Shown here: piece by piece, positions 2,128 to 64,000 of the stretch
How the letters are laid out: each line of letters begins with the position of its first letter
How positions within the stretch are numbered: the first letter of the stretch is position 1
DNA from: Escherichia coli
Lineage (GTDB): Bacteria; Pseudomonadota; Gammaproteobacteria; Enterobacterales; Enterobacteriaceae
Assembly: GCF_013315695.1 (NCBI RefSeq)
Contig: NZ_CP054353.1
Length of the DNA: 64,000 bases
Strand: one strand, 5' to 3'
Program-made: the position numbers and the translations under genes
Notes under the pieces: model-generated
What the model was told of the DNA's origin: nothing
Databases searched by the model: none
The model's input: only the letters and a program-made list of their open reading frames with translations

Positions 2128-2645
2128 AACTGAATCTCCACCTGAATACGTTAAAAAGACTTAAGTAGTGGAAGGGTATTACCCGCGAGAAAAAATAAGA
2201 ATTCGCCATTTGGCGGTGGCCATTCTACAGAGATGACGCGTAGAAAATAGTTACCGATATAAATAGTTACAGCTAAACGCCTGAAATTACATGTCGAGTG
2301 CACTATTTAAAACAATTTTGAGGATTTCCTTATATTGATGGTTAGTACGCATGCAATTAAAAATGAAACTCCGCGACCACAAGCAAAAATAACAAATGGC
2401 AATGAGACAAAAATAAGCACAAATAGCCAACACGTCCTCTGTTCACTTTAAAGGGAATCGCTGAAAAAAACGCTCTGTTTAGGGAAATTCACCTTTCTCA
2501 TAAAGCTATTCCGCCCTTTTCCTGCTGAGAAATCGCCACATTCGTCATGACAACATTGTGAAACCCGGCATTAGATGTTAGAAAAAACAAGGTGATGCTG
2601 CCAACTTACTGATTTAGTGTATGATGGTGTTTTTGAGGTGCTCCA

Positions 2646-2921
2646 GTGGCTTCTGTTTCTATCAGCTGTCCCTCCTGTTCAGCTACTGACGGGGTGGTGC
2701 GTAACGGCAAAAGCACCGCCGGACATCAGCGCTATCTCTGCTCTCACTGCCGTAAAACATGGCAACTGCAGTTCACTTACACCGCTTCTCAACCCGGTAC
2801 GCACCAGAAAATCATTGATATGGCCATGAATGGCGTTGGATGCCGGGCAACAGCCCGCATTATGGGCGTTGGCCTCAACACGATTTTACGTCACTTAAAA
2901 AACTCAGGCCGCAGTCGGTAA
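2646..2921 (+). CDS. insA: IS1 InsA
   Basis: 91-aa [25 protein letters not shown]… identical in all three IS1 copies. Confidence 0.9.
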
Positions 2922-3343
2922 CCTCGCGCATACAGCCGGGCAGTGACGTCATCGTCTGCGCGGAAATGGACGAACAGTGGGGCTATGTCGGGGCTAAATC
3001 GCGCCAGCGCTGGCTGTTTTACGCGTATGACAGGCTCCGGAAGACGGTTGTTGCGCACGTATTCGGTGAACGCACTATGGCGACGCTGGGGCGTCTTATG
3101 AGCCTGCTGTCACCCTTTGACGTGGTGATATGGATGACGGATGGCTGGCCGCTGTATGAATCCCGCCTGAAGGGAAAGCTGCACGTAATCAGCAAGCGAT
3201 ATACGCAGCGAATTGAGCGGCATAACCTGAATCTGAGGCAGCACCTGGCACGGCTGGGACGGAAGTCGCTGTCGTTCTCAAAATCGGTGGAGCTGCATGA
3301 CAAAGTCATCGGGCATTATCTGAACATAAAACACTATCAATAA
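2840..3343 (+). CDS. insB: IS1 InsB (expressed as InsAB' by -1 frameshift)
   Basis: 167-aa ORF overlapping insA in the -1 frame. Confidence 0.9.
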
Positions 3344-3423
3344 GTTGGAGTCATTACCAAAAAACAATAAACAATGCGATATGCGCGCTACTGTTTCGCT
3401 GTGAACAACAATCGGTCAAAGAA

Positions 3424-7109: not shown

Positions 7110-7275
7110 AAGCCTGATGCGCTACGCTTATCAGGCCAGAATTTCCATACAATATATTGAATTAGCAAGGATTTGTAAGCCGGAGGCGTTCACGCCGCAT
7201 CCGGCATGAACAAAGCACACTTTGCCAACAATCTAAATCTGTTTAATTGCCGGATGTCAGACATCCGGCAATTAT
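7110..7275. repeat. Cluster of REP/BIME-like palindromic units between yhjE and yhjG
   Basis: Imperfect palindromes GCCTGATGCGCTACGCTTATCAGGCC, GCCGGAGGCGTTCACGCCGCATCCGGC, TGCCGGATGTCAGACATCCGGCA. Confidence 0.6.
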
Positions 7276-7277
7276 CA

Positions 7278-9353
7278 TCACTTCTTCATCTGCGACAAAA
7301 TTGTCCTGCACTGATTAGCCTCCCCTTCGGAAGGTGAGATCAGCGCCAGTAACGCCGCCGCCGGTGTTACCAGCGTTGCCAGTGCCGCCGCAACGGCTCC
7401 GCGAGCAATCAACGGCCCGGCTTTCACCCCAGCCTGCGGATTTTTAAACGTCCCACGTACATACAGCGGCGAACGCAATGTGATAATCCGAATCCCTTTA
7501 CTCTCCGGATCAATAGTCAAATCCAGCTGTTCCGAAGCAAAACTTGCCGTACCGGTAACGTTAATCAACGCGTTCTCAGTATCGAAAGCAAAAATCTGCG
7601 GGCGCGCCACGCCGTTGGCAATATCCAGATTCGCCGCCGCACAGTTCACCCGCACCTCATCATCACCAAATATCGCACCGACAATGTAGTTACCGACATT
7701 CAGCCCGACAATCTCCATCAGGTTGCGGCTCACCAGCCCGTCATTCATCAGCAGTTTCAGGTTGCCGTTACTGTTGCCTAAAAGCGCCGCCACCGAGTTA
7801 CCGCTACCGCGTAGTTCCGCGTCACCGTTCATTTCCCCCAGCGTCTTCTGCATCAGTTCCACATCGGGCATCAGTTCTTTCAGTTTCAGTCGACGAGCCT
7901 GAATATCTGCCCGCCCTTGCATCGGTTTTTTATCACCTTCCAGATGAATATTCGCCGCAATGCTGCCGCCCGCCATGCCAAATTTCAGCGGTTGCAGGCG
8001 CAGGTCAGCATTTTTGAGGATGATATGAGTAGAAAGATCGCTAATCGGCAGGCTACTGCCATGCTCAATGCGCCGCCCTTTGAAGCGAACATCGGCATCC
8101 ATAACGTCCCATTTATCGGTTTCGAAGCGGTCATAAGGCAGCACTTTGCCCGCAGGCTGAACGCTTTTTTCACCCTTCTTCTGTTCAGACCGTGTCGACT
8201 TTTCAGCTCCTTTCCCGGAATCAACGCCAATCAACGGTCCCAGGTCCGCCAGCCGCAATTGCCGCGACTCGACATCACCTTCCAGTTTTGGTCGTGGCTT
8301 GCCGGTGGTGTAGACCAGAGAACCGTGGATATCGCTATCGCCAATGCGCCCATTAAAGCCGCGATAATCAAAGACCGACGATTTTTCAGTGTCGATTTTC
8401 GCTACCAGCCGACCATCCGTTTCAAACGGCGGGGTATCGGGCAGCAGAACGCCCGTCAGTTCATAGAGATCACCCAGCGAATCGCCAGAAAATTTAAGCC
8501 GTAAATCGACACCCCCCATCTTCATTGGGTCATTCACAACGCCATCAAAAGCAACACGGGTGTTACCAGAGCGGAAATCAGCCTGTACCGGAAACGGCGT
8601 ACCTTCGCCACGCAGCGCCAGCATACCGCCTATTTTTCCCGTACCAGTGAGCGGTTCACCGTTATAACGTCCCTGCGCCTTCAGGCCAAAAACGTAATCA
8701 CCCACCTTTTCTTTATCCGCTTTACCTTTCGATCCAGTAACTTCGCTGAACGGCAGCGGCTTGCCTAACGGATCGACAAAAATTTCTAGATCCGCTTTGC
8801 TTACTTTGTCATCAATGGCGATCCGCCCTTGATCGAACAGAATATTATCCAGCCGAAACGACCATGCCGACGGCTTTGCATTCGCGTCTTTGTTGTCATC
8901 GCTGGCAAGATTAAACGTCCAGTTATTGTTCTTTTCAGAGAGGCGAATCAGGCGCGCGTCGGGCTTTTCGAGCTTGACCCACGGCAGCCAGACCGTTTTG
9001 GACAGCAGCGCCAGCGGTGCCAGCGTCGCTTCTACGCGTGGCAAATGCACCATTGTGACTTCGGGAATATCTGGTGGGTTGCCGAGAATGATGTCTTCCG
9101 CGTGTACATGAGGCCACGGCACCCAGCTGCGCCAGCCGGTTTCCTGTTTTTGCCGCTCCCACACCACGCCCAGATCGCCACGGATAGCGAACGGACGATT
9201 CAACTCCGCAGAGACTTTCTGGTTGATGGTCGGTTTGAGTCGATTCCAGTCAAAAGTTGCAATCAAAATGATCGCCACGACAATCAACAACAAGAAAGCC
9301 CCTGAAATCGCAGCGGTTATTTTGCCTGCCTTGCTCATCGTTCGCTTCCTCAT
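7278..9353 (-). CDS. yhjG: AsmA-family outer-membrane biogenesis protein
   Basis: 691-aa ORF with N-terminal membrane anchor; synteny. Confidence 0.8.
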   Translation of the reverse strand: MRKRTMSKAGKITAAISGAFLLLIVVAIILIATFDWNRLKPTINQKVSAELNRPFAIRGDLGVVWERQKQETGWRSWVPWPHVHAEDIILGNPPDIPEVTMVHLPRVEATLAPLALLSKTVWLPWVKLEKPDARLIRLSEKNNNWTFNLASDDNKDANAKPSAWSFRLDNILFDQGRIAIDDKVSKADLEIFVDPLGKPLPFSEVTGSKGKADKEKVGDYVFGLKAQGRYNGEPLTGTGKIGGMLALRGEGTPFPVQADFRSGNTRVAFDGVVNDPMKMGGVDLRLKFSGDSLGDLYELTGVLLPDTPPFETDGRLVAKIDTEKSSVFDYRGFNGRIGDSDIHGSLVYTTGKPRPKLEGDVESRQLRLADLGPLIGVDSGKGAEKSTRSEQKKGEKSVQPAGKVLPYDRFETDKWDVMDADVRFKGRRIEHGSSLPISDLSTHIILKNADLRLQPLKFGMAGGSIAANIHLEGDKKPMQGRADIQARRLKLKELMPDVELMQKTLGEMNGDAELRGSGNSVAALLGNSNGNLKLLMNDGLVSRNLMEIVGLNVGNYIVGAIFGDDEVRVNCAAANLDIANGVARPQIFAFDTENALINVTGTASFASEQLDLTIDPESKGIRIITLRSPLYVRGTFKNPQAGVKAGPLIARGAVAAALATLVTPAAALLALISPSEGEANQCRTILSQMKK

Positions 9354-55091: not shown

Positions 55092-57161
55092 TTACTGTAA
55101 CAGCGAAATATCCGCAACTCGCAGGAATAATTCGCGCAGTTTCTCCAGCATGGTAAGACGGTTGATTCGCAATTCTTTGTCATCAACCATGACCATCACT
55201 TTATCGAAGAAGGCATCAACCGGTTCACGCAGCTCAGCCAGTTCGACCAGCGCATCCTGGTAACGACCTTCAGCAAAGTACGGCTCTAGCTTGTCACGTA
55301 GCACCACAACCTGCATCGCCAGTTTAATTTCTTCCGGCTCTTTCAGAGTAGAGGCATTCACGCGGTCGCTCAGCACTTCGTCAGATTTCGCCAGAATGTT
55401 AGATACACGCTTGTTCGCCGCCGCCAGTGCTGCAGCTGCATCCAGGGTACGGAAGTGCGATACCGCTTTCATTCGGGCATCGAAATCAGCCGGACGAGTC
55501 GGACGACGCGCCAGTACCGCCTGGATGGTGTCAACGGTGTAACCTTCGTCCTGATACCAGGCGCGGAAGCGACCGAGCATAAAGTCGATAACATCATCAA
55601 CCACGTTGGCATTAGTCAGCTTATCGCCATACAGACGCACTGCTTCTTCGGTCAGGGTTTGCAGGTCAAGATTGAGGTTCTTCTCAACGATAATACGCAG
55701 CACGCCAAGTGCGGCACGACGCAACGCAAACGGGTCTTTGTCGCCTTTCGGATGCTGGCCGATACCGAAGATACCCGCCAGAGTATCCATCTTGTCAGCA
55801 ATCGCCAGCGCACAGGCTACCGGGTTAGACGGCAGGTCATCACCGGCAAAGCGCGGCTGATACTGCTCGTTCAGCGCCACGGCAACATCTTCCGCTTCGC
55901 CATCGTGACGCGCGTAGTGCATCCCCATAACGCCCTGGGTGTCGGTGAACTCGAAGACCATGTTGGTCATCAGGTCGCACTTGGACAGCAGGCCCGCACG
56001 GGTTGCGTGGTTAACGTCAGCGCCAATCTGTTCAGCAATCCAGCCAGCCAGCGCCTGGATGCGGTCAGTTTTGTCGCGCAGTGTACCCAGCTGTTGCTGG
56101 AACAACACGGTTTGCAGGCGCGGCAGGTTATCTTCCAGACGTTTTTTACGGTCGGTGTTGAAGAAGAACTCGGCATCCGCCAGACGTGGACGAACGACTT
56201 TCTCGTTACCAGAGATAATTTGCTGCGGATCTTTCGATTCGATATTGGCAACGAAGATAAAGTTCGGCAGCAGTTTGCCGTCGTTCGCATACACCGGGAA
56301 GTATTTCTGGTCACCTTTCATGGTGTAAACCAGTGCTTCAGACGGCACCGCGAGGAATTTCTCTTCGAATTTCGCGGTCAGAACGACCGGCCACTCCACC
56401 AGCGAAGCCACTTCTTCCAGCAGGCTTTCGCTTAAATCAGCGTTACCGCCAATCTTACGTGCTGCTTCTTCAGCATCGGCTTTAATCTTCGCCTTACGTT
56501 CTTCGTAATCGGCGATGACTCTCCCGCGCTCACGCAGAATTTCCGGATACTGATCGGCATTGTCGATAGTGAATTCCGACTCGCCCATAAAGCGGTGGCC
56601 GCGAATCACGCGATCGGACTGAATACCCAGAATGGTAGCCGGAATAACTTTGTCGCCCAGCAGCAGGGTCACGGTGTGAACCGGACGCACGAAGTGCACG
56701 TCGCTTGCGCCCCAACGCATCAGTTTCGGGATCGGCAGTTTCGCCAGCGAAGTCGCAACCATATTCGGCAGCAGTGCTTCGGTGCTTTCGCCCTTCACAT
56801 GGGCGCGATACAGCAGCCATTCGCCTTTATCGGTAGTCAGACGCTCAGCCTGGTCAACGGTAATACCGCAACCACGCGCCCAACCTTCTGCCGCTTTGCT
56901 CGGTTTGCCTTCAGCGTCGAACGCCTGGGCAATTGCCGGGCCGCGTTTTTCGATTTCACGATCCGGTTGCGCTTCCGCCAGGTTAGCCACTTTCAGCGCC
57001 AGACGACGCGGAGCAGCAAACCATTGAACGGTGCCGTGTGCGAGGCCAGCGTTATCCAGCTCCGCAGTAAAGTTCGCAGCAAAGGACTCAGCCAGGCTGC
57101 GCAGTGCTTTTGGTGGCAGCTCTTCAGTGCCGATTTCCACCAGAAAAGTTTTCTCAGACAT
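55092..57161 (-). CDS. glyS: Glycine--tRNA ligase beta subunit
   Basis: 689-aa [23 protein letters not shown]…. Confidence 0.95.
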
Positions 57162-57170
57162 AGCCGCCTC

Positions 57171-58082
57171 TTACTTATCTTTGTTGCACATCGGGAAGCC
57201 GAGGGCTTCACGGGAAGCGTAGTATGCTTCTGCCACTGCTTTGGTCAGGGTGCGAATGCGCAGAATGTAGCGCTGACGCTCGGTGACGGAGATGGCTTTA
57301 CGCGCATCCAGCAGGTTGAAGCTGTGGGCGGCTTTCAGAATACGCTCGTAGGCTGGCAGCGGCAGCGGATTTTCCAGCGCCAGCAGCTGCTGCGCTTCTT
57401 TCTCGTACTGCTCAAAGCAGGTGAACAGGAAGTCCACATCCGCGTATTCGAAGTTGTAAGTGGACTGCTCCACTTCGTTCTGATGGAACACGTCGCCGTA
57501 GGTGGTTTTACCCAGCGGGCCGTCGCTCCAGACCAGGTCGTAAACGCTGTCTACGCCCTGAATGTACATTGCCAGACGTTCCAGACCGTAGGTGATCTCG
57601 CCGGTAACCGGTTTACACTCCAGACCACCAACCTGCTGGAAGTAAGTGAACTGCGTCACTTCCATGCCGTTCAGCCACACTTCCCAGCCCAGCCCCCAGG
57701 CACCCAGCGTCGGGTTTTCCCAGTTATCTTCCACGAAACGGATGTCGTGGATGGTCGGGTCCATGCCCAGCTCTTTCAGAGAACCAAGGTACAGCTCCTG
57801 AATATTGTCCGGCGATGGCTTAATGACCACCTGGAACTGATAGTAGTGCTGTAAACGGTTGGGGTTTTCGCCGTAGCGACCATCGGTCGGGCGACGAGAA
57901 GGCTGAACATAAGCAGCCGCCATCGGTTCTGGCCCCAGCGCGCGCAGACAGGTCATTGGGTGAGAGGTTCCCGCGCCGACTTCCATGTCCAATGGTTGAA
58001 CAATGGTGCAGCCCTGGCGAGCCCAGTAATCCTGTAAGGTCAGGATCAAGCCCTGGAAGGTCCTGGTATCAAACTTTTGCAT
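57171..58082 (-). CDS. glyQ: Glycine--tRNA ligase alpha subunit
   Basis: 303-aa [28 protein letters not shown]…. Confidence 0.95.
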
Positions 58083-58176
58083 ATTATTTCGTGCTGGATA
58101 CGTGTGGATTTAAAGGAAGGGATCAGTATACCCGCTGGATGGAAGATATACAGTACGAAACGGGAAAAAGCAGGGC

Positions 58177-58485
58177 TTAACGCATGGAAAGATGCAAAAA
58201 ATGGCCATCTGCGTCAAAAGAACAGACAAACTGCTCTTTACGGAAGGTATAACCGCGCATTTCGTAGCTCCCCTGGAACTGTTCAAATGCGGTGACGTCG
58301 ATTTTTTGCGCACCTGTATTATAGCGTTTTGCCGCCTGATCTTTGCATAGCCCTTCCATATTCAACGAACGCAGAGGATCAACCTTTACCCGTTGTGCTT
58401 TCTGCACGGGTGGCGGTGTAGAACAACCCACTAGCGCCATAAGCACCATAAGCGCCATTGCCGGAAAGAAAGAGTTCATCATCAT
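58177..58485 (-). CDS. ysaB: Small lipoprotein
   Basis: About 100-aa ORF with lipobox LVGCS. Confidence 0.75.
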   Translation of the reverse strand: MMMNSFFPAMALMVLMALVGCSTPPPVQKAQRVKVDPLRSLNMEGLCKDQAAKRYNTGAQKIDVTAFEQFQGSYEMRGYTFRKEQFVCSFDADGHFLHLSMR

Positions 58486-58659
58486 TAAATTACCGTCTGG
58501 TTTGCAGGTGAGTCTTATTATTTATATCGGTATAGTGGCTGATATCTTACGAATTTCCTTAAGCCTCTATAAGCTGTAGTGATAAAACTCAGATTATTCC
58601 AGTGCGCCAACCGAATGATTTATCGGTCAGACTTTTTTTAACCAGATACAGAGACACAG

Positions 58660-59655
58660 ATGCAGCCCAAAATTTACTGGATTGATAACCTGCGAGGGAT
58701 AGCGTGTTTAATGGTGGTGATGATTCACACCACTACCTGGTATGTGACCAATGCTCATAGTGTTAGCCCCGTCACATGGGATATCGCCAATGTTCTGAAT
58801 TCTGCCTCTCGTGTCAGCGTGCCGCTATTTTTCATGATTTCCGGCTATCTCTTTTTTGGCGAACGCAGCGCCCAGCCGCGCCATTTCTTGCGCATCGGCT
58901 TATGCCTGCTGTTTTATAGCACTGTTGCGCTGCTCTACATTGCGCTGTTTACCTCCATCAATATGGAGTTAGCGCTGAAAAACCTGCTGCAAAAGCCAGT
59001 GTTTTACCACTTGTGGTTTTTCTTCGCGATTGCGGTGATTTATCTGGTTTCACCGCTGATTCAGGTGAAGAACGTCGGCGGAAAAATGTTGCTGGTGCTA
59101 ATGGTGGTGATTGGCATTATCGCTAACCCAAACACAGTGCCGCAGAAAATTGACGGTTTTGAATGGCTGCCAATTAACTTATATATCAATGGCGATACTT
59201 TTTACTACATCCTGTATGGCATGTTGGGCCGCGCTATAGGGATGATGGACACACAGCATAAAGCACTGTCGTGGGTGTGCGCCGCACTGTTTGCGACGGG
59301 GGTATTTATTATCTCTCGCGGGACATTATATGAATTGCAGTGGCGCGGAAATTTTGCCGATACCTGGTATCTTTACTGTGGGCCGATGGTTTTTATCTGC
59401 GCAATCACGCTATTGACTCTGGTTAAAAACACGCTGGATACACACACTGTTCCCGGGCTTGGGCTGATATCACGCCATTCTTTAGGTATATACGGGTTCC
59501 ATGCATTGATTATCCATGCGCTGCGTACCCGGGGGATTGAGCTTAAAAACTGGCCAATACTCGATATTATTTGGATCTTTTGCGCGACGTTGGCAGCGAG
59601 TTTGTTACTTTCTATGCTGGTACAACGAATCGACAGAAACAGACTAGTGAGTTAA
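58660..59655 (+). CDS. wecH: Membrane O-acetyltransferase (acyltransferase 3 family)
   Basis: 331-aa multi-TM ORF; synteny. Confidence 0.85.
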
Positions 59656-59656
59656 A

Positions 59657-59692
59657 TAAAAGCCCGGTCACATTGGACTGACCGGGCTTATG
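59657..59692. terminator. Bidirectional hairpin terminator between wecH and yiaA
   Basis: AAGCCCGGTCA…TGACCGGGCTT. Confidence 0.6.
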
Positions 59693-59696
59693 TGAA

Positions 59697-60137
59697 TTAT
59701 TCGCTGTATTCTTCCTGGGTAACCTGTGTTTCTTTTGGTGGGTTTATTCCGACATCACGAATATTCTTCTGCACCGCTACTGCACCAAACAAGCTTAAGA
59801 AGAAAGCCAGCCCATAAAAGCCTTTTTCGCTGAGTAATAACGTTGCATTCCACAGACCTACCAGCAATAACGCAACAGAGATAATAAAGACCGTCAGGCA
59901 AGTCATATAATAAATGGAGGTGGTCGGTATGCCTTCATACTTGTCCCGAACGGTCTTTTGATAAGACGCCGCAGAAAACAGTCCTAATACCAGTACGGCA
60001 AAATAATATCCTTTTTCATTTAACTGCATCTCTGCATTCCATAGCCCTAACAGATAGGTAACGATACCACCAACGAGAGCTATCCATGACACAATACTAA
60101 ATGCCGGTGAATAGGTTGATATTTTGTTGTCCATCAC
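59697..60137 (-). CDS. yiaA: Inner-membrane protein YiaA
   Basis: 146-aa ORF with 4 predicted TM helices. Confidence 0.8.
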
Positions 60138-60179
60138 AGTATTCCTTTCATTCCTGAATGTGTAAGAGGTTTATGTTGC

Positions 60180-60487
60180 TCATGCCGGGCGAAACAAACG
60201 CATTTGACCAAACAAGCAGACAAAAAAGGCGATGGGATAAATCACCATTTCATAAGCATTGATAGGTGCGTTTAAAACACCGATAAACAAGAGACCGATA
60301 GTGATTAACGCCAGCAACTGGCAGACGCGGATAAAAAAATCATCCAGTTGCCCGAGTTTTTCTGCGCGAAGATATGCATAATTGCCAAAAGTTGCTGTCA
60401 TTAACACGCCAAGAAAATAGCCTTTTCCACTTAACAATGGGCATGAGATCCATAGCCCAACCAGATAAACCAGCGCCCCGACAACAA
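60180..60487 (-). pseudogene. yiaB: yiaB lacking its 5' end and promoter (reading frame runs into IS1)
   Basis: ORF 60180..60437 (paralog-like to yiaA); frame open up to the IS1 boundary with no native start. Confidence 0.7.
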
Positions 60488-60502
60488 GGTAATGACTCCA
60501 AC

Positions 60503-61006
60503 TTATTGATAGTGTTTTATGTTCAGATAATGCCCGATGACTTTGTCATGCAGCTCCACCGATTTTGAGAACGACAGCGACTTCCGTCCCAGCCGTGCCA
60601 GGTGCTGCCTCAGATTCAGGTTATGCCGCTCAATTCGCTGCGTATATCGCTTGCTGATTACGTGCAGCTTTCCCTTCAGGCGGGATTCATACAGCGGCCA
60701 GCCATCCGTCATCCATATCACCACGTCAAAGGGTGACAGCAGGCTCATAAGACGCCCCAGCGTCGCCATAGTGCGTTCACCGAATACGTGCGCAACAACC
60801 GTCTTCCGGAGCCTGTCATACGCGTAAAACAGCCAGCGCTGGCGCGATTTAGCCCCGACATAGCCCCACTGTTCGTCCATTTCCGCGCAGACGATGACGT
60901 CACTGCCCGGCTGTATGCGCGAGGTTACCGACTGCGGCCTGAGTTTTTTAAGTGACGTAAAATCGTGTTGAGGCCAACGCCCATAATGCGGGCTGTTGCC
61001 CGGCAT
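60503..61006 (-). CDS. insB: IS1 InsB
   Basis: Identical 167-aa ORF. Confidence 0.9.
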
Positions 61007-61200
61007 CCAACGCCATTCATGGCCATATCAATGATTTTCTGGTGCGTACCGGGTTGAGAAGCGGTGTAAGTGAACTGCAGTTGCCATGTTTTACGGCAGT
61101 GAGAGCAGAGATAGCGCTGATGTCCGGCGGTGCTTTTGCCGTTACGCACCACCCCGTCAGTAGCTGAACAGGAGGGACAGCTGATAGAAACAGAAGCCAC
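60925..61200 (-). CDS. insA: IS1 InsA
   Basis: Identical 91-aa ORF. Confidence 0.9.
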
Positions 61201-61255
61201 TGGAGCACCTCAAAAACACCATCATACACTAAATCAGTAAGTTGGCAGCATCACC

Positions 61256-61822
61256 AGTTTATCCATTTCACCTGATACCCGCGTTGGCGATTTAGGACTT
61301 GGGCAACAACAACTGGTTGAAATTGCCAAGGCACTTAATAAACAGGTGCGTTTGTTAATTCTCGATGAGCCGACAGCCTCATTAACTGAGCAGGAAACGT
61401 CGGTTTTACTGGATATTATTCGCGATCTACAACAGCACGGTATCGCCTGTATTTATATTTCGCACAAACTCAACGAAGTCAAAGCGATTTCCGATACGAT
61501 TTGCGTTATTCGCGACGGTCAGCACATTGGCACGCGTGATGCTGCTGGAATGAGTGAAGACGATATTATCACCATGATGGTCGGGCGGGAGTTAACCGCG
61601 CTTTACCCTAATGAACCACATACCACCGGAGATGAAATATTACGTATTGAACATCTGACGGCATGGCATCCGGTTAATCGTCATATTAAACGAGTTAATG
61701 ATGTCTCGTTTTCCCTGAAACGTGGCGAAATACTGGGTATTGCCGGACTCGTTGGTGCCGGACGTACCGAGACCATTCAGTGCCTGTTTGGCGTGTGGCC
61801 CGGACAATGGGAAGGAAAAATT
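61256..61822 (+). pseudogene. xylG: Internal fragment of xylose ABC transporter ATPase (5' end deleted at IS1, 3' side interrupted by IS110-family element)
   Basis: Frame reads [43 protein letters not shown]… from the IS1 boundary; ABC signature and Walker B. Confidence 0.8.
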
Positions 61823-63267
61823 CTTATGACCTTTGTCAAATATTGAGCCCAAAAAGACCTTACGCAGCTCCGGGAGCTTCGTTATATCGCGGATTAAAGA
61901 ACCTGAAACAGTCAGACTGTATCTTGGATTTTACAAACTCTTATTCGGGGATTTTAGCCCCATGACGATTTACGCAGTGAGCTGGCCTCTTTCTATATGC
62001 AGGTATTGGCGCATTCTGACCTCCTGAATTCTTTTACGAGGATCACTCATTCCGTGTCTGACTGCTTCAGGGTTTAATTTTGCTTCTGCTGACTGAATGA
62101 TGATTGGGCAGCAAGTGCAATATCCCACATAAATCCAGTCAACTCACGAGCCACCGCCGTAATGGCTACTTGTGATTTTTTCCCTTTTGCTGTCAGACTT
62201 CGGTAACGAGAACACAATCGTTGTTGAGCTTTCCATGCAATATCTTTGGAATATTGTGTTACAGAATCCGGTCGGTAATATATAAGCCATGCACCAACTT
62301 TTGCAGGTGTACGATAAGACCAGGCGGCTTCGTAAAGCAGACGTCTCAGTTCGCTGTTTCCAACTTTTGTTATTCCCCTGGGACGAATGCTGTTTCCACT
62401 GGAATATTCCCCTGGAACCAGTCCCAGAAAAGCCATGAGTTGTTTGGGACTGGAAAATCGTGAAAAATCACCCAGTTCAGCAACCAGGGTTATTGCGGTT
62501 AGCTGACCAACACCTTTAAGGGCCTGTAACTGGCAGACCAGATTGCACAGAGACCACTCAGGTAACAGGCGGGATATTTCCTGGTCGAGTTGAAGTATGC
62601 GATCTTCAATCTGCTCCAGACTCTGACAATAGTGTTGAAAAGCAATCTGTTGAGATGGCTGACTAAATGATTGATTGGCTAACCAGGTTCGATGTTTGCC
62701 GGTCCAGTGCTTCCCTGCATAACGTTTGTCTGTTCGCAATAGCATGCTCAGAATTCGCTGTCGGGCAACTCTGCTGTCTCGTTTAGCTGCTGCACGGGCT
62801 CTGATTAGATCCCGCATAGCTTCATGAGTCAGGTCAGGGATCCAGACAGGGGTAAGTTCACCAGCCCGCAGTAACCTGGCAAGAGAAATTGCGTCCCGAT
62901 GATCATTTTTGATTCTGTCTGTCGGTGATTTTGGTATCCGGGAAGGGGCAATAACCTGGCATTTTATATTCATCGCTGTGAGTTGATGATATAGCCCAAA
63001 ACCACAGGGGCCAGCCTCATAGCAGGAAAGAATGTTTCCGTAAAGTCCCTGCAATTTCTGAAATAATCGACGTACAGCCTGGGCTTCGTTGTTAATCGTA
63101 CCATAATAACGAACTTCGCCAAGCCGTTCAGGTGCAGCAATAGCAACCGCCAACGTTTCTTTATGTACATCCAGTCCGATGTAAGCTGCAATATTTTCCG
63201 AATGCATAATGACCTCCTCTGGAATATCCCACCAATGCTATAGTGAGTATATAAAGGTCATACCATC
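61823..63267 (-). mobile_element. IS110-family insertion sequence, about 1.45 kb, inside xylG; 10-bp terminal inverted repeats TATGACCTTT (61825-61834 and 63253-63262)
   Basis: xylG frame breaks after …WEGKI and resumes at YIDGKQ…; the insert carries one DEDD-type transposase gene and a 251-bp non-coding end. Confidence 0.8.
62074..63207 (-). CDS. IS110-family (DEDD) transposase
   Basis: 377-aa ORF; N-terminal YIGLDVHKETLAVAI motif and C-terminal domain typical of IS110/IS1111 transposases. Confidence 0.8.
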   Translation of the reverse strand: MHSENIAAYIGLDVHKETLAVAIAAPERLGEVRYYGTINNEAQAVRRLFQKLQGLYGNILSCYEAGPCGFGLYHQLTAMNIKCQVIAPSRIPKSPTDRIKNDHRDAISLARLLRAGELTPVWIPDLTHEAMRDLIRARAAAKRDSRVARQRILSMLLRTDKRYAGKHWTGKHRTWLANQSFSQPSQQIAFQHYCQSLEQIEDRILQLDQEISRLLPEWSLCNLVCQLQALKGVGQLTAITLVAELGDFSRFSSPKQLMAFLGLVPGEYSSGNSIRPRGITKVGNSELRRLLYEAAWSYRTPAKVGAWLIYYRPDSVTQYSKDIAWKAQQRLCSRYRSLTAKGKKSQVAITAVARELTGFMWDIALAAQSSFSQQKQN

Positions 63268-63852
63268 TATATTGATGGCAAACAGGTAGATATTCGTAAC
63301 TGTCAGCAAGCCATCGCCCAGGGGATTGCGATGGTACCCGAAGACAGAAAGCGCGACGGCATCGTTCCGGTAATGGCGGTTGGTAAAAATATTACCCTCG
63401 CCGCACTCAATAAATTTACCGGCGGTATTAGCCAGCTTGATGACGCGGCAGAGCAAAAATGTATTCTGGAATCAATCCAGCAACTCAAAGTTAAAACGTC
63501 GTCCCCCGACCTTGCTATTGGACGTTTGAGCGGCGGCAATCAGCAAAAAGCGATCCTCGCTCGCTGTCTGTTACTCAACCCGCGCATTCTCATTCTTGAT
63601 GAACCTACCAGGGGTATCGATATTGGCGCGAAATACGAGATCTACAAATTAATTAACCAACTCGTCCAGCAGGGTATTGCCGTTATTGTCATCTCTTCCG
63701 AATTACCTGAAGTGCTCGGCCTTAGCGATCGTGTACTGGTGATGCATGAAGGGAAACTAAAAGCCAACCTGATAAATCATAACCTGACTCAGGAGCAGGT
63801 GATGGAAGCCGCATTGAGGAGCGAACATCATGTCGAAAAGCAATCCGTCTGA
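63268..63852 (+). pseudogene. xylG: 3' fragment of xylG
   Basis: Frame [31 protein letters not shown]… through second ABC domain to stop. Confidence 0.8.
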
Positions 63853-64000
63853 AGTGAAATTAGCCGTACCGACATCCGGTGGCTTTTCCGGGCTGAAATC
63901 ACTGAATTTGCAGGTCTTCGTGATGATTGCAGCTATCATCGCAATCATGCTGTTCTTTACCTGGACCACCGATGGTGCCTACTTAAGCGCCCGTAACGTC
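63830..64000 (+). CDS. xylH: Xylose ABC transporter permease, 3' end outside the window
   Basis: ATG at 63830 overlapping xylG stop; [43 protein letters not shown]…. Confidence 0.75.

What the first reader, a model, noticed from the sequence alone, without database searches (positions are those of the whole stretch)
60180..61350. IS1-associated deletion spanning yiaB 5' end, xylB, xylA, xylF and the first ~130 codons of xylG
IS1 copy 3 lacks a target duplication. It is flanked on one side by a yiaB frame without a start codon and on the other by xylG entering mid-gene in frame at …[19 protein letters not shown]…. In the K-12 order (yiaA, yiaB, xylB, xylA, xylF, xylG, xylH) the genes for xylulokinase, xylose isomerase and the xylose-binding protein belong between these points, and none is present. 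The prediction is a xylose-negative phenotype.
Basis: partly seen in the sequence, partly recalled or inferred. Interest (0 to 1): 0.55.

Follow-up and report, generated by a model that had tools for sequence, protein, structure and literature searches.

The report
IS1-mediated deletion of xylose genes
A mobile element (IS1) already sitting in the xylose-transporter gene xylG of this E. coli strain has removed the adjacent 4.7 kb carrying the xylose-catabolism genes; this is a textbook kind of bacterial gene loss and probably makes the strain unable to grow on xylose.

Summary
A complete 768-bp IS1 (window 60488-61255) has no target-site duplication. Its left flank is yiaB lacking its first 34 nt. 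Its right flank is xylG starting exactly at codon 131. The window contains no xylB, xylA or xylF.

In both, the same IS1 already sits in xylG with the identical right junction. It already lacks a duplication there, and 155 bp of xylG are already missing. The IS110-family element ISEc45 also splits xylG further downstream in all three strains.

The only structural difference between the window and MSB1_4I over the ~62.7 kb compared is a 4,721-bp gap that starts at the terminal base of the IS1 IRR end. It removes xylG nt 1-235, xylF, xylA, xylB and yiaB nt 1-34.

This is a recent, strain-level extension of an IS1-adjacent deletion. It most likely arose by intramolecular IS1 transposition. Less likely, a second IS1 inserted and then recombined with the resident copy.

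xylBA is single-copy in 5,410 of 5,426 complete E. coli genomes and is never duplicated, so a xylose-negative phenotype is a sound prediction, though untested. The mechanism is ordinary and already known, so interest is low.

The parts
59697..60137 (-). yiaA, intact (context gene on the retained side)
   Evidence: tblastn with K-12 YiaA covers residues 1-145 at 98.6% identity. The ORF is listed.
60180..60487 (-). yiaB remnant: nt 35-342 plus the stop codon. The first 34 nt (start codon and 11 codons) and the promoter are deleted.
   Evidence: The K-12 alignment ends at L003 7715 while the yiaB CDS is 7408-7749. NCBIfam YiaB profile positions 14-111 of 112 are matched. The frame has no ATG, GTG or TTG start upstream of 60437.
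60487..60488 (.). Deletion junction. In MSB1_4I, 4,721 bp (L001 9829-14549) lie between these two bases.
   Evidence: Window 55000-60487 equals L001 4341-9828 and window 60488-64000 equals L001 14550-18062, both at 100% identity. There is no microhomology at the break.
60488..61255 (-). Complete IS1 (IS1A-type), 768 bp. The IRR end is at 60488 and the IRL end at 61255. There is no target-site duplication.
   Evidence: It is 100% identical to two other IS1 copies in the window and to the IS1A-annotated element in MSB1_4I. The terminal repeats match at 18 of 23 positions.
60925..61200 (-). insA of IS1
   Evidence: NCBIfam IS1 family transposase positions 1-81, plus the IS1/IS1595 zinc-binding domain.
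60503..61006 (-). insB frame of IS1. The A6C -1 frameshift motif lies at IS1 coordinates 307-313, which is window 60943-60949.
   Evidence: NCBIfam IS1 family transposase positions 75-199 at 145.6 bits. The A6C motif was located.
61256..61822 (+). xylG middle fragment, codons 131 to about 319-321, with no start of its own
   Evidence: tblastn XylG residues 131-321 at 98.4%. Aligns to K-12 L003 12591-13158. xylG equivalog profile positions 130-320 are matched.
61823..63264 (-). ISEc45 (IS110 family) inserted in xylG, with its transposase at 62074-63207. Also present in MSB1_4I and AF3. The element ends are uncertain by about 3 nt.
   Evidence: RefSeq annotation of the identical DNA. NCBIfam IS110 family transposase at 279.9 bits. 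The K-12 alignment is interrupted between 61822 and 63265.
63265..63852 (+). xylG 3' fragment, codons 319-513 plus the stop
   Evidence: tblastn XylG residues 319-513 at 100%.
63830..64000 (+). Start of xylH, which runs off the end of the window
   Evidence: tblastn XylH residues 1-57 at 100%.

Best explanation
This is a genuine, very recent deletion made by an IS1 that was already resident in xylG.

Shown: the parental arrangement is preserved in E. coli MSB1_4I and AF3. It reads yiaA-yiaB-xylB-xylA-xylF-xylG(nt 1-235)|IS1|xylG(nt 391...)-ISEc45-xylG 3'-xylH. In the window strain, everything from the terminal nucleotide of the IS1 IRR end leftward for 4,721 bp is gone. The IS1, its IRL junction and all downstream DNA are unchanged.

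Inferred mechanism: IS1 transposase, acting on the ends of the resident copy, attacked a target inside yiaB on the same molecule (9-mer CGACAACAA at yiaB nt 35-43). The deletion outcome of such intramolecular replicative transposition keeps one IS1 fused to the new target. The intervening segment is released as a non-replicating circle, which is lost. No target duplication remains in the chromosome.

The same IS1 (or an earlier two-step event at it) had already removed 155 bp of xylG in the ancestor, so the deletion grew stepwise.

Inferred consequence: loss of xylose isomerase, xylulokinase, the binding protein XylF, the xylA/xylF divergent promoter region and the xylZ sRNA locus annotated in K-12. 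The strain should therefore be D-xylose-negative. yiaB becomes a start-less pseudogene.

My confidence that this is an IS1-generated deletion of some kind is about 0.95. My confidence in the one-step intramolecular transposition route specifically is about 0.6, which is the figure given in the confidence field.
For: - The window is colinear with MSB1_4I. Identity is 100% on both sides of the junction. Over 1309-51308 there are 12 mismatches in 50 kb, all inside one 236-bp stretch of the ldr repeats, and one more mismatch in 51000-55100. The 4,721-bp gap is the sole structural difference.
- The gap begins exactly at the first base of the IS1 IRR (GGTAATGAC...), with zero microhomology.
- The IS1 right junction ...GCATCACC|agtttatcc is identical in the window, MSB1_4I and AF3, and in no other of the 5,426 complete genomes.
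- In the relatives the IS1 also lacks a duplication (gcgataccg versus agtttatcc), and xylG nt 236-390 are missing relative to K-12.
- A second IS1 in the window (27050-27817) also lacks a duplication and is flanked by the truncated genes bcsE and bcsR. IS1-adjacent deletion therefore recurs in this lineage.
- The IS1 has intact insA, insB and frameshift motif, and the lineage carries at least 40 IS1 places per chromosome.
- PMC11708052 reports that IS-adjacent deletions leave no duplication and often start small and grow over time.
- The junction was assembled independently in other samples (L009, L011 and L012).
- xylBA occurs once per genome in 5,410 of 5,426 genomes, never twice and never on a plasmid.
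- A nonsense mutation in xylA alone is the classical xyl-5 Xyl- allele (PMC5379014).
Against: - The end product of one-step intramolecular transposition is base-for-base identical to the product of a two-step route (new IS1 insertion, then IS1-IS1 recombination). All IS1 copies seen are identical, so there is no chimera test.
- Neither the excised circle nor transposase dependence can be examined from sequence.
- Only 64 kb of this genome are available, so the absence of xylA and xylB elsewhere, and the phenotype, are inferred.
- The short metagenome contigs that share the yiaB|IS1 junction stop inside IS1. They would equally fit a simple insertion at that site.
Confidence: 0.6

Rival explanations
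1. Two-step route. A second IS1 first inserted into yiaB at nt 34/35 in the same orientation as the xylG copy, producing a 9-bp duplication. RecA-dependent homologous recombination between the two direct 768-bp copies then excised the 4.7 kb plus one IS1.
For: IS1 inserts often in this neighbourhood. AF3 has an independent IS1 in the yiaB 3' end with the duplication AAACAAGCA. Six unrelated genomes have simple IS1 insertions in the yiaB-xylB intergenic region. All IS1 copies are identical, which makes them good recombination substrates. The short contigs L009, L011 and L012 show only the yiaB|IS1 junction, so they could in principle come from such an intermediate. Published laboratory-evolution work recognises IS-IS recombination as a frequent cause of missing duplications (PMC11708052).
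Against: No genome among the 5,426 complete E. coli carries an IS1 at this yiaB position. The AF3 insertion is at a different site and in the opposite orientation, so recombination there would invert rather than delete. The route needs two events within a divergence so small that no substitutions were seen outside the ldr repeat, apart from one. The same IS1 already shows an earlier 155-bp flank loss, which would require yet another insertion-plus-recombination cycle.
Confidence: 0.3
2. Assembly artefact. The isolate really carries two direct IS1 copies (one in yiaB, one in xylG), and the assembler collapsed them, dropping the 4.7 kb between.
For: The three IS1 copies in the window are 100% identical, and repeats are the usual cause of collapse. 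Reads are not available to check.
Against: The window is a 64-kb contiguous sequence that resolves three identical IS1 copies in unique contexts, matching MSB1_4I. A collapse would still require an unobserved IS1 at exactly yiaB nt 34/35. The same yiaB|IS1 junction occurs in independent assemblies from other samples (L009 and L011 at 100%, L012 at 99.8%). One of those samples, ERZ27238783, also yields the IS1|xylG contig (L018).
Confidence: 0.03
3. IS-independent deletion. Illegitimate or microhomology-mediated recombination happened by chance to end at the IS1 boundary.
For: None specific. Spontaneous deletions do occur.
Against: The break coincides to the base with the terminal nucleotide of an intact IS1 inverted repeat, and there is no microhomology between the two break points. 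A second duplication-less IS1 with truncated neighbours lies in the same window.
Confidence: 0.02

Closest known systems
Classical IS1-promoted adjacent deletions (gal region of E. coli K-12 and R plasmids, 1970s literature; cited from my own knowledge, not verified here)
   Same: A resident IS1 is retained intact. The deletion starts exactly at one IS end and extends into flanking DNA. The other junction is unchanged. No 9-bp duplication remains.
   Different: This is a natural clinical or commensal lineage rather than a selected laboratory mutant. Transposase dependence and RecA independence were not tested. Two successive deletions occurred at the same copy (155 bp, then 4,721 bp).
[quoted passage not shown]
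   Same: In both cases an IS sits in or next to a sugar-utilisation operon, adjacent deletions lack duplications, and the deletions start small and are later extended. The window shows the same stepwise pattern.
   Different: The IS family differs (IS1 versus the IS3-family IS150), and so does the operon (xyl versus rbs). This is a natural population with no known selective regime.
Loss of xylose-utilisation genes in Shigella lineages (for example the ~22-kb deletion removing xylFGH and xylR in S. sonnei lineages 2 and 3; PMC12795559)
   Same: Decay of the same locus in an IS-rich, human-associated member of the E. coli species complex.
   Different: The Shigella deletion removes the transporter and regulator side and is reported as not IS-flanked. 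Here the catabolic genes xylAB and xylF are removed, an IS1 sits at the junction, and the strain is E. coli, essentially identical to MSB1_4I.
xylA5 (xyl-5) marker of HB101/RR1
   Same: Loss of xylA function alone gives the Xyl- phenotype (Trp69 to stop). This supports the phenotype prediction.
   Different: That allele is a point nonsense mutation induced in the laboratory, whereas this is a 4.7-kb IS-mediated deletion.

Membership tests
IS1 family insertion sequence | Element of about 768 bp bounded by imperfect terminal inverted repeats of about 23 bp (GGTAATGAC... / GGTGATGCT...) | tested here: met
   The element is 768 bp and 18 of 23 terminal positions are complementary. It is identical to the RefSeq-annotated IS1A in MSB1_4I.
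IS1 family insertion sequence | insA and insB' frames joined by a -1 frameshift at an A6C motif, encoding an IS1-type transposase | tested here: met
   NCBIfam transpos_IS1 matches InsA (profile positions 1-81) and InsB (75-199, 145.6 bits). AAAAAAC lies at IS1 coordinate 307.
IS1 family insertion sequence | A 9-bp direct target duplication flanking a simple insertion | tested here: not met
   The flanks are CGACAACAA and AGTTTATCC. This is expected if a deletion followed insertion. Copy 1 in the same window has the duplication AAAAAACAA. The missing duplication bears on the history of this copy, not on its identity as IS1.
IS-mediated adjacent deletion | A parental genome exists with the same IS at the same site and one junction unchanged | tested here: met
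   MSB1_4I and AF3 carry the identical IS1|xylG nt 391 junction, and all DNA to its right is 99.97-100% identical to the window.
IS-mediated adjacent deletion | The deleted segment abuts the terminal nucleotide of the intact IS, with no duplication and no microhomology | tested here: met
   L001 9829-14549 (4,721 bp) is missing and the break lies at the first G of the IRR.
IS-mediated adjacent deletion | Transposase-dependent, RecA-independent formation with release of an IS-bearing circle | not testable with these tools
   This needs genetics or PCR on the strain. Sequence alone cannot separate it from IS-IS recombination.
Deletion by homologous recombination between two direct IS copies | An intermediate exists with a second, directly oriented IS1 at the other deletion end point | tested here: inconclusive
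   None of the 5,426 complete genomes has an IS1 at yiaB nt 34/35, but only two genomes of this lineage are in the set. The short contigs L009, L011 and L012 cannot tell an intermediate from the final product.
Functional D-xylose utilisation locus (xylAB / xylFGH, isomerase pathway) | Intact xylA (xylose isomerase) and xylB (xylulokinase) | tested here: not met
   There is no tblastn match in the window, and the cognate position is occupied by the deletion junction. The rest of this genome was not available. xylBA is never present in more than one copy in any complete E. coli genome.
Functional D-xylose utilisation locus (xylAB / xylFGH, isomerase pathway) | Intact high-affinity ABC transporter XylFGH | tested here: not met
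   xylF is absent. xylG is reduced to two fragments (codons 131 to about 320, and 319-513) separated by ISEc45.

The most novel reading that the evidence does not exclude
The xyl locus of this widespread, IS1-rich human-associated clone may be decaying stepwise under selection rather than by drift. The steps are ISEc45 and IS1 insertion in xylG, then a 155-bp loss, then loss of xylFAB. If selected, this would parallel the convergent loss of xylose utilisation in Shigella and would mark an E. coli lineage in an early phase of Shigella-like, IS-driven reductive evolution.
Probability: 0.1. Interest if true: 0.4.

Novelty: already known. Interest (0 to 1): 0.15.

Why it matters
The practical value is mainly for annotation and phenotype prediction. 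The strain should score D-xylose-negative, an unusual trait for E. coli, since only 16 of 5,426 complete genomes lack xylBA. That could confuse biochemical identification. The yiaB|IS1 junction is a precise clonal marker for a sublineage of a widespread clone. The locus is also a clean natural example of an IS-adjacent deletion caught next to its parental state, including stepwise growth of the deletion. It shows no new mechanism or gene function.

Tried and rejected
- **Chimeric-IS1 test for recombination.** I looked for a chimeric IS1 that would reveal recombination between two copies. All three IS1 copies in the window and those in the relatives are identical, so the test carries no information.
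- **Search for the junction in complete genomes.** I searched all complete RefSeq E. coli genomes for the yiaB|IS1 junction, hoping to find the source genome or an intermediate. No one-piece match was found. The six apparent full-coverage hits each align as two separate pieces; the two examined (H31, H36) are unrelated simple IS1 insertions in the yiaB-xylB intergenic region with xyl intact, and the other four show the same two-piece pattern.
- **AF3 as a possible precursor.** Its extra IS1 in yiaB is at a different site (3' end, duplication AAACAAGCA) and in the opposite orientation, so I rejected it.
- **Exact-protein look-ups.**
  - The 85-aa TTG-start yiaB remnant is not on record.
  - The 73-aa ATG-start version returned 6 places. 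Three are mere contig-end truncations, and three truly cross the junction but stop inside IS1.
  - The xylG middle-fragment product is found only on contigs under 2 kb, bounded by IS1 and ISEc45. These cannot show what lies left of the IS1.
- **Literature.** A search for MSB1_4I gave nothing relevant. A search for xylose-negative E. coli with an insertion sequence gave no prior description of this allele.
- **Sequence type.** I did not try to determine it, because no MLST loci lie in the window.

Full report
**What is in the sequence**

Window 60488-61255 is a complete 768-bp IS1.
- Its ends are GGTAATGACTCC... and ...GGCAGCATCACC, and 18 of the 23 terminal positions are complementary.
- insA (60925-61200) and the insB frame (60503-61006) lie on the minus strand.
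- The AAAAAAC frameshift motif is present. Both frames match the NCBIfam IS1 transposase model.
- The IRL end therefore faces right (61255) and the IRR end faces left (60488).
- The flanking 9-mers are CGACAACAA on the left and AGTTTATCC on the right, so there is no target duplication.
- For comparison, IS1 copy 1 in the same window (2591-3358) has a clean 9-bp duplication, AAAAAACAA.

The flanks were placed against K-12 MG1655 (locus L003).
- The left flank aligns up to yiaB nt 35. The first 34 nt of yiaB, including the start codon, are missing.
- The right flank aligns from xylG nt 391, which is codon 131.
- In total, 4,876 bp of the K-12 arrangement are missing.
- tblastn with K-12 XylB, XylA and XylF finds nothing in the 64-kb window.

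**What relatives show**

Two complete RefSeq genomes are essentially the same strain as the window. They are E. coli MSB1_4I (rectal swab, Australia) and AF3 (blood culture, UK).
- Window 55000-60487 and 60488-64000 are each 100% identical to MSB1_4I.
- Window 1309-51308 differs at 12 positions, all inside one 236-bp stretch of the ldr tandem repeats.
- Window 51000-55100 differs at one position.

Both relatives still carry yiaB, xylB, xylA and xylF intact.

They also already carry the same IS1, in the same orientation, inside xylG, with exactly the same right junction (IS1|agtttatcc at xylG nt 391). No other genome among the 5,426 complete genomes has that junction.

In the relatives the IS1 left junction is at xylG nt 235 (gcgataccg|IS1). 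The IS1 therefore already lacks a duplication there, and xylG nt 236-390 (155 bp) are already missing relative to K-12.

All three strains also share an IS110-family element, annotated ISEc45, which splits xylG again at window 61823-63264.

The only structural difference between the window and MSB1_4I over the ~62.7 kb compared (window 1309-64000) is the absence of L001 9829-14549. This is 4,721 bp (34 + 168 + 1,455 + 71 + 1,323 + 365 + 993 + 77 + 235) and comprises:
- yiaB nt 1-34
- the 168-bp AT-rich yiaB-xylB spacer
- xylB, then a 71-bp spacer
- xylA
- the 365-bp xylA/xylF control region
- xylF, then a 77-bp spacer
- xylG nt 1-235

The gap starts at the very first base of the IS1 IRR, and there is no microhomology at the break.

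**How it most likely arose**

The anatomy has four diagnostic features: a resident IS kept intact, one junction untouched, the deletion starting at the terminal nucleotide of the other end, and no duplication. This is the signature of an IS-adjacent deletion.

For IS1 the classical route is intramolecular replicative transposition. This rests on my knowledge of the 1970s-80s literature and was not verified here. The ends of the resident copy attack a target on the same molecule, here the 9-mer CGACAACAA in yiaB. In the deletion outcome, the chromosome keeps one IS1 fused to the target. The intervening DNA leaves as a non-replicating circle and is lost.

Three observations fit this route.
- The same IS1 shows an earlier 155-bp flank loss, so the deletion grew in steps. 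[quoted passage not shown]
- IS1 copy 2 in the window (27050-27817) also lacks a duplication. It sits between N-terminally truncated bcsE and bcsR. The process therefore recurs in this lineage.
- The lineage carries at least 40 IS1 places per chromosome, which is the tool's reporting cap.

**Rivals**

- **Two-step route.** A new IS1 inserts in yiaB in direct orientation and then recombines with the xylG copy. The product would be identical base for base. Because all IS1 copies are identical, no chimera test is possible.
  - The neighbourhood is clearly an IS1 target. AF3 has an independent IS1 in the yiaB 3' end (duplication AAACAAGCA). It is in the opposite orientation and at another site, so it is not the precursor.
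  - Six unrelated genomes appear to have simple IS1 insertions in the yiaB-xylB spacer (two of them confirmed).
  - I give this route about 0.3 and the one-step route about 0.6.
- **Assembly collapse.** This is unlikely, at about 0.03.
  - The contig resolves three identical IS1 copies in their proper contexts.
  - The same yiaB|IS1 junction was assembled independently from at least three other public samples (L009 and L011 at 100% identity, L012 at 99.8%).
  - One of those samples also yields the IS1|xylG contig (L018).
  - Those short contigs end inside IS1, so they confirm the junction but not what lies beyond it.
- **IS-independent deletion.** One that ended by chance exactly at the IS terminus without microhomology is very unlikely, at about 0.02.

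**Consequences**

The high-affinity XylFGH transporter was already non-functional in the parental clone, because xylG is broken by both IS1 and ISEc45. That clone is widespread: its xylG nt 235|IS1 junction product is indexed in 1,091 blocks of public assemblies.

The new deletion additionally removes xylose isomerase, xylulokinase, XylF, the divergent promoter region and the K-12-annotated xylZ sRNA locus.

Three lines support a D-xylose-negative phenotype.
- Across 5,426 complete E. coli genomes, xylBA is present exactly once in 5,410. It is never present twice and never on a plasmid. A second copy elsewhere in this genome is therefore very unlikely.
- Complete absence of xylBA is rare, at 16 of 5,426 genomes (0.3%).
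- A single nonsense mutation in xylA is the classical Xyl- marker xyl-5 (PMC5379014).

A D-xylose-negative phenotype is thus a well-founded prediction, but it remains untested here.

yiaB loses its start codon and promoter. The remaining frame has no ATG, GTG or TTG start before 60437, so it is probably a pseudogene.

**Comparison with known cases, and verdict**

Mechanistically this is a standard IS1-mediated deletion. Biologically it resembles IS-driven loss of sugar operons in experimental evolution, and the decay of the xyl locus in Shigella. For example, xylFGH and xylR are absent from S. sonnei lineages 2 and 3 (PMC12795559).

The precise allele is not present in any complete RefSeq E. 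coli genome, but nothing about it departs from known behaviour.

- The deletion is an extension from a pre-existing xylG::IS1.
- It happened in at least two steps.
- xylG carries a second IS.

Interest is low. The value lies in correct annotation, a predicted atypical biochemical trait, and a clean natural example of stepwise IS-adjacent deletion.

Noticed in passing
window 27050-27817: IS1 copy 2 also lacks a target duplication (CTGTTCGCG / TTATTTTCA). In the identical MSB1_4I sequence it is annotated between bcsE (N-terminus missing) and bcsR (N-terminus missing). This is a second IS1-associated deletion, which probably abolishes cellulose synthesis and is shared with the relative.
   Followed up: partly
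window 2591-3358: IS1 copy 1 is a simple insertion with a clean 9-bp duplication, AAAAAACAA, in the rcdB-yhjB intergenic region. It serves as an internal control for what an undisturbed IS1 looks like.
   Followed up: yes
window 61823-63264: An IS110-family element, annotated ISEc45 in relatives, splits xylG at about codon 319-321. NCBIfam names the family 'RNA-guided transposase'. Its exact ends and any bridge RNA were not examined.
   Followed up: partly
window 32695-32930: All 12 mismatches between window 1309-51308 and MSB1_4I cluster in this 236-bp stretch of the ldr type I toxin tandem repeats. This suggests gene conversion between repeat units or an assembly difference.
   Followed up: no
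L002 9560-10327 (AF3), equivalent to an insertion after window 60218: Sister strain AF3 has an independent IS1 insertion in the 3' end of yiaB with the duplication AAACAAGCA. It is oriented opposite to the xylG IS1. This makes two separate IS1 events within 6 kb among three near-identical strains.
   Followed up: yes
L004 about 7235-8002 and L005 about 7248-8015 (hits H31-H36): Six unrelated complete E. coli genomes show a two-piece yiaB-plus-IS1 match, at several different offsets. The two examined (H31, H36) are simple IS1 insertions in the AT-rich (34.5% GC) yiaB-xylB spacer with xyl genes intact. The spacer looks like a local IS1 hotspot.
   Followed up: partly
L026 3240-5005 (GCA_000351945.1) and L025 3240-6240 (metagenome scaffold): Other members of the xylG::IS1 clone show further variation at this IS1. 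L026 has two IS1 copies flanking a 233-bp foreign AT-rich segment. In L025 the IS1 is joined on its right to a rhodanese / alpha-2-macroglobulin (yfhM-like) locus, which is either a rearrangement or a chimeric scaffold.
   Followed up: partly
window about 53396-54844 (L001 2737-4185): An IS150 lies next to hokA, as in K-12. It aligns to the K-12 IS150 in the opposite orientation and at a site offset by about 40 bp, suggesting an independent insertion into the hokA/sokA locus.
   Followed up: no
window about 46786-49114 (L006 2195-4523): bisC (biotin sulfoxide reductase) is annotated as frameshifted in the MSB1_4I sequence, which is identical to the window across this stretch. This would be another pseudogene in the lineage.
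   Followed up: no
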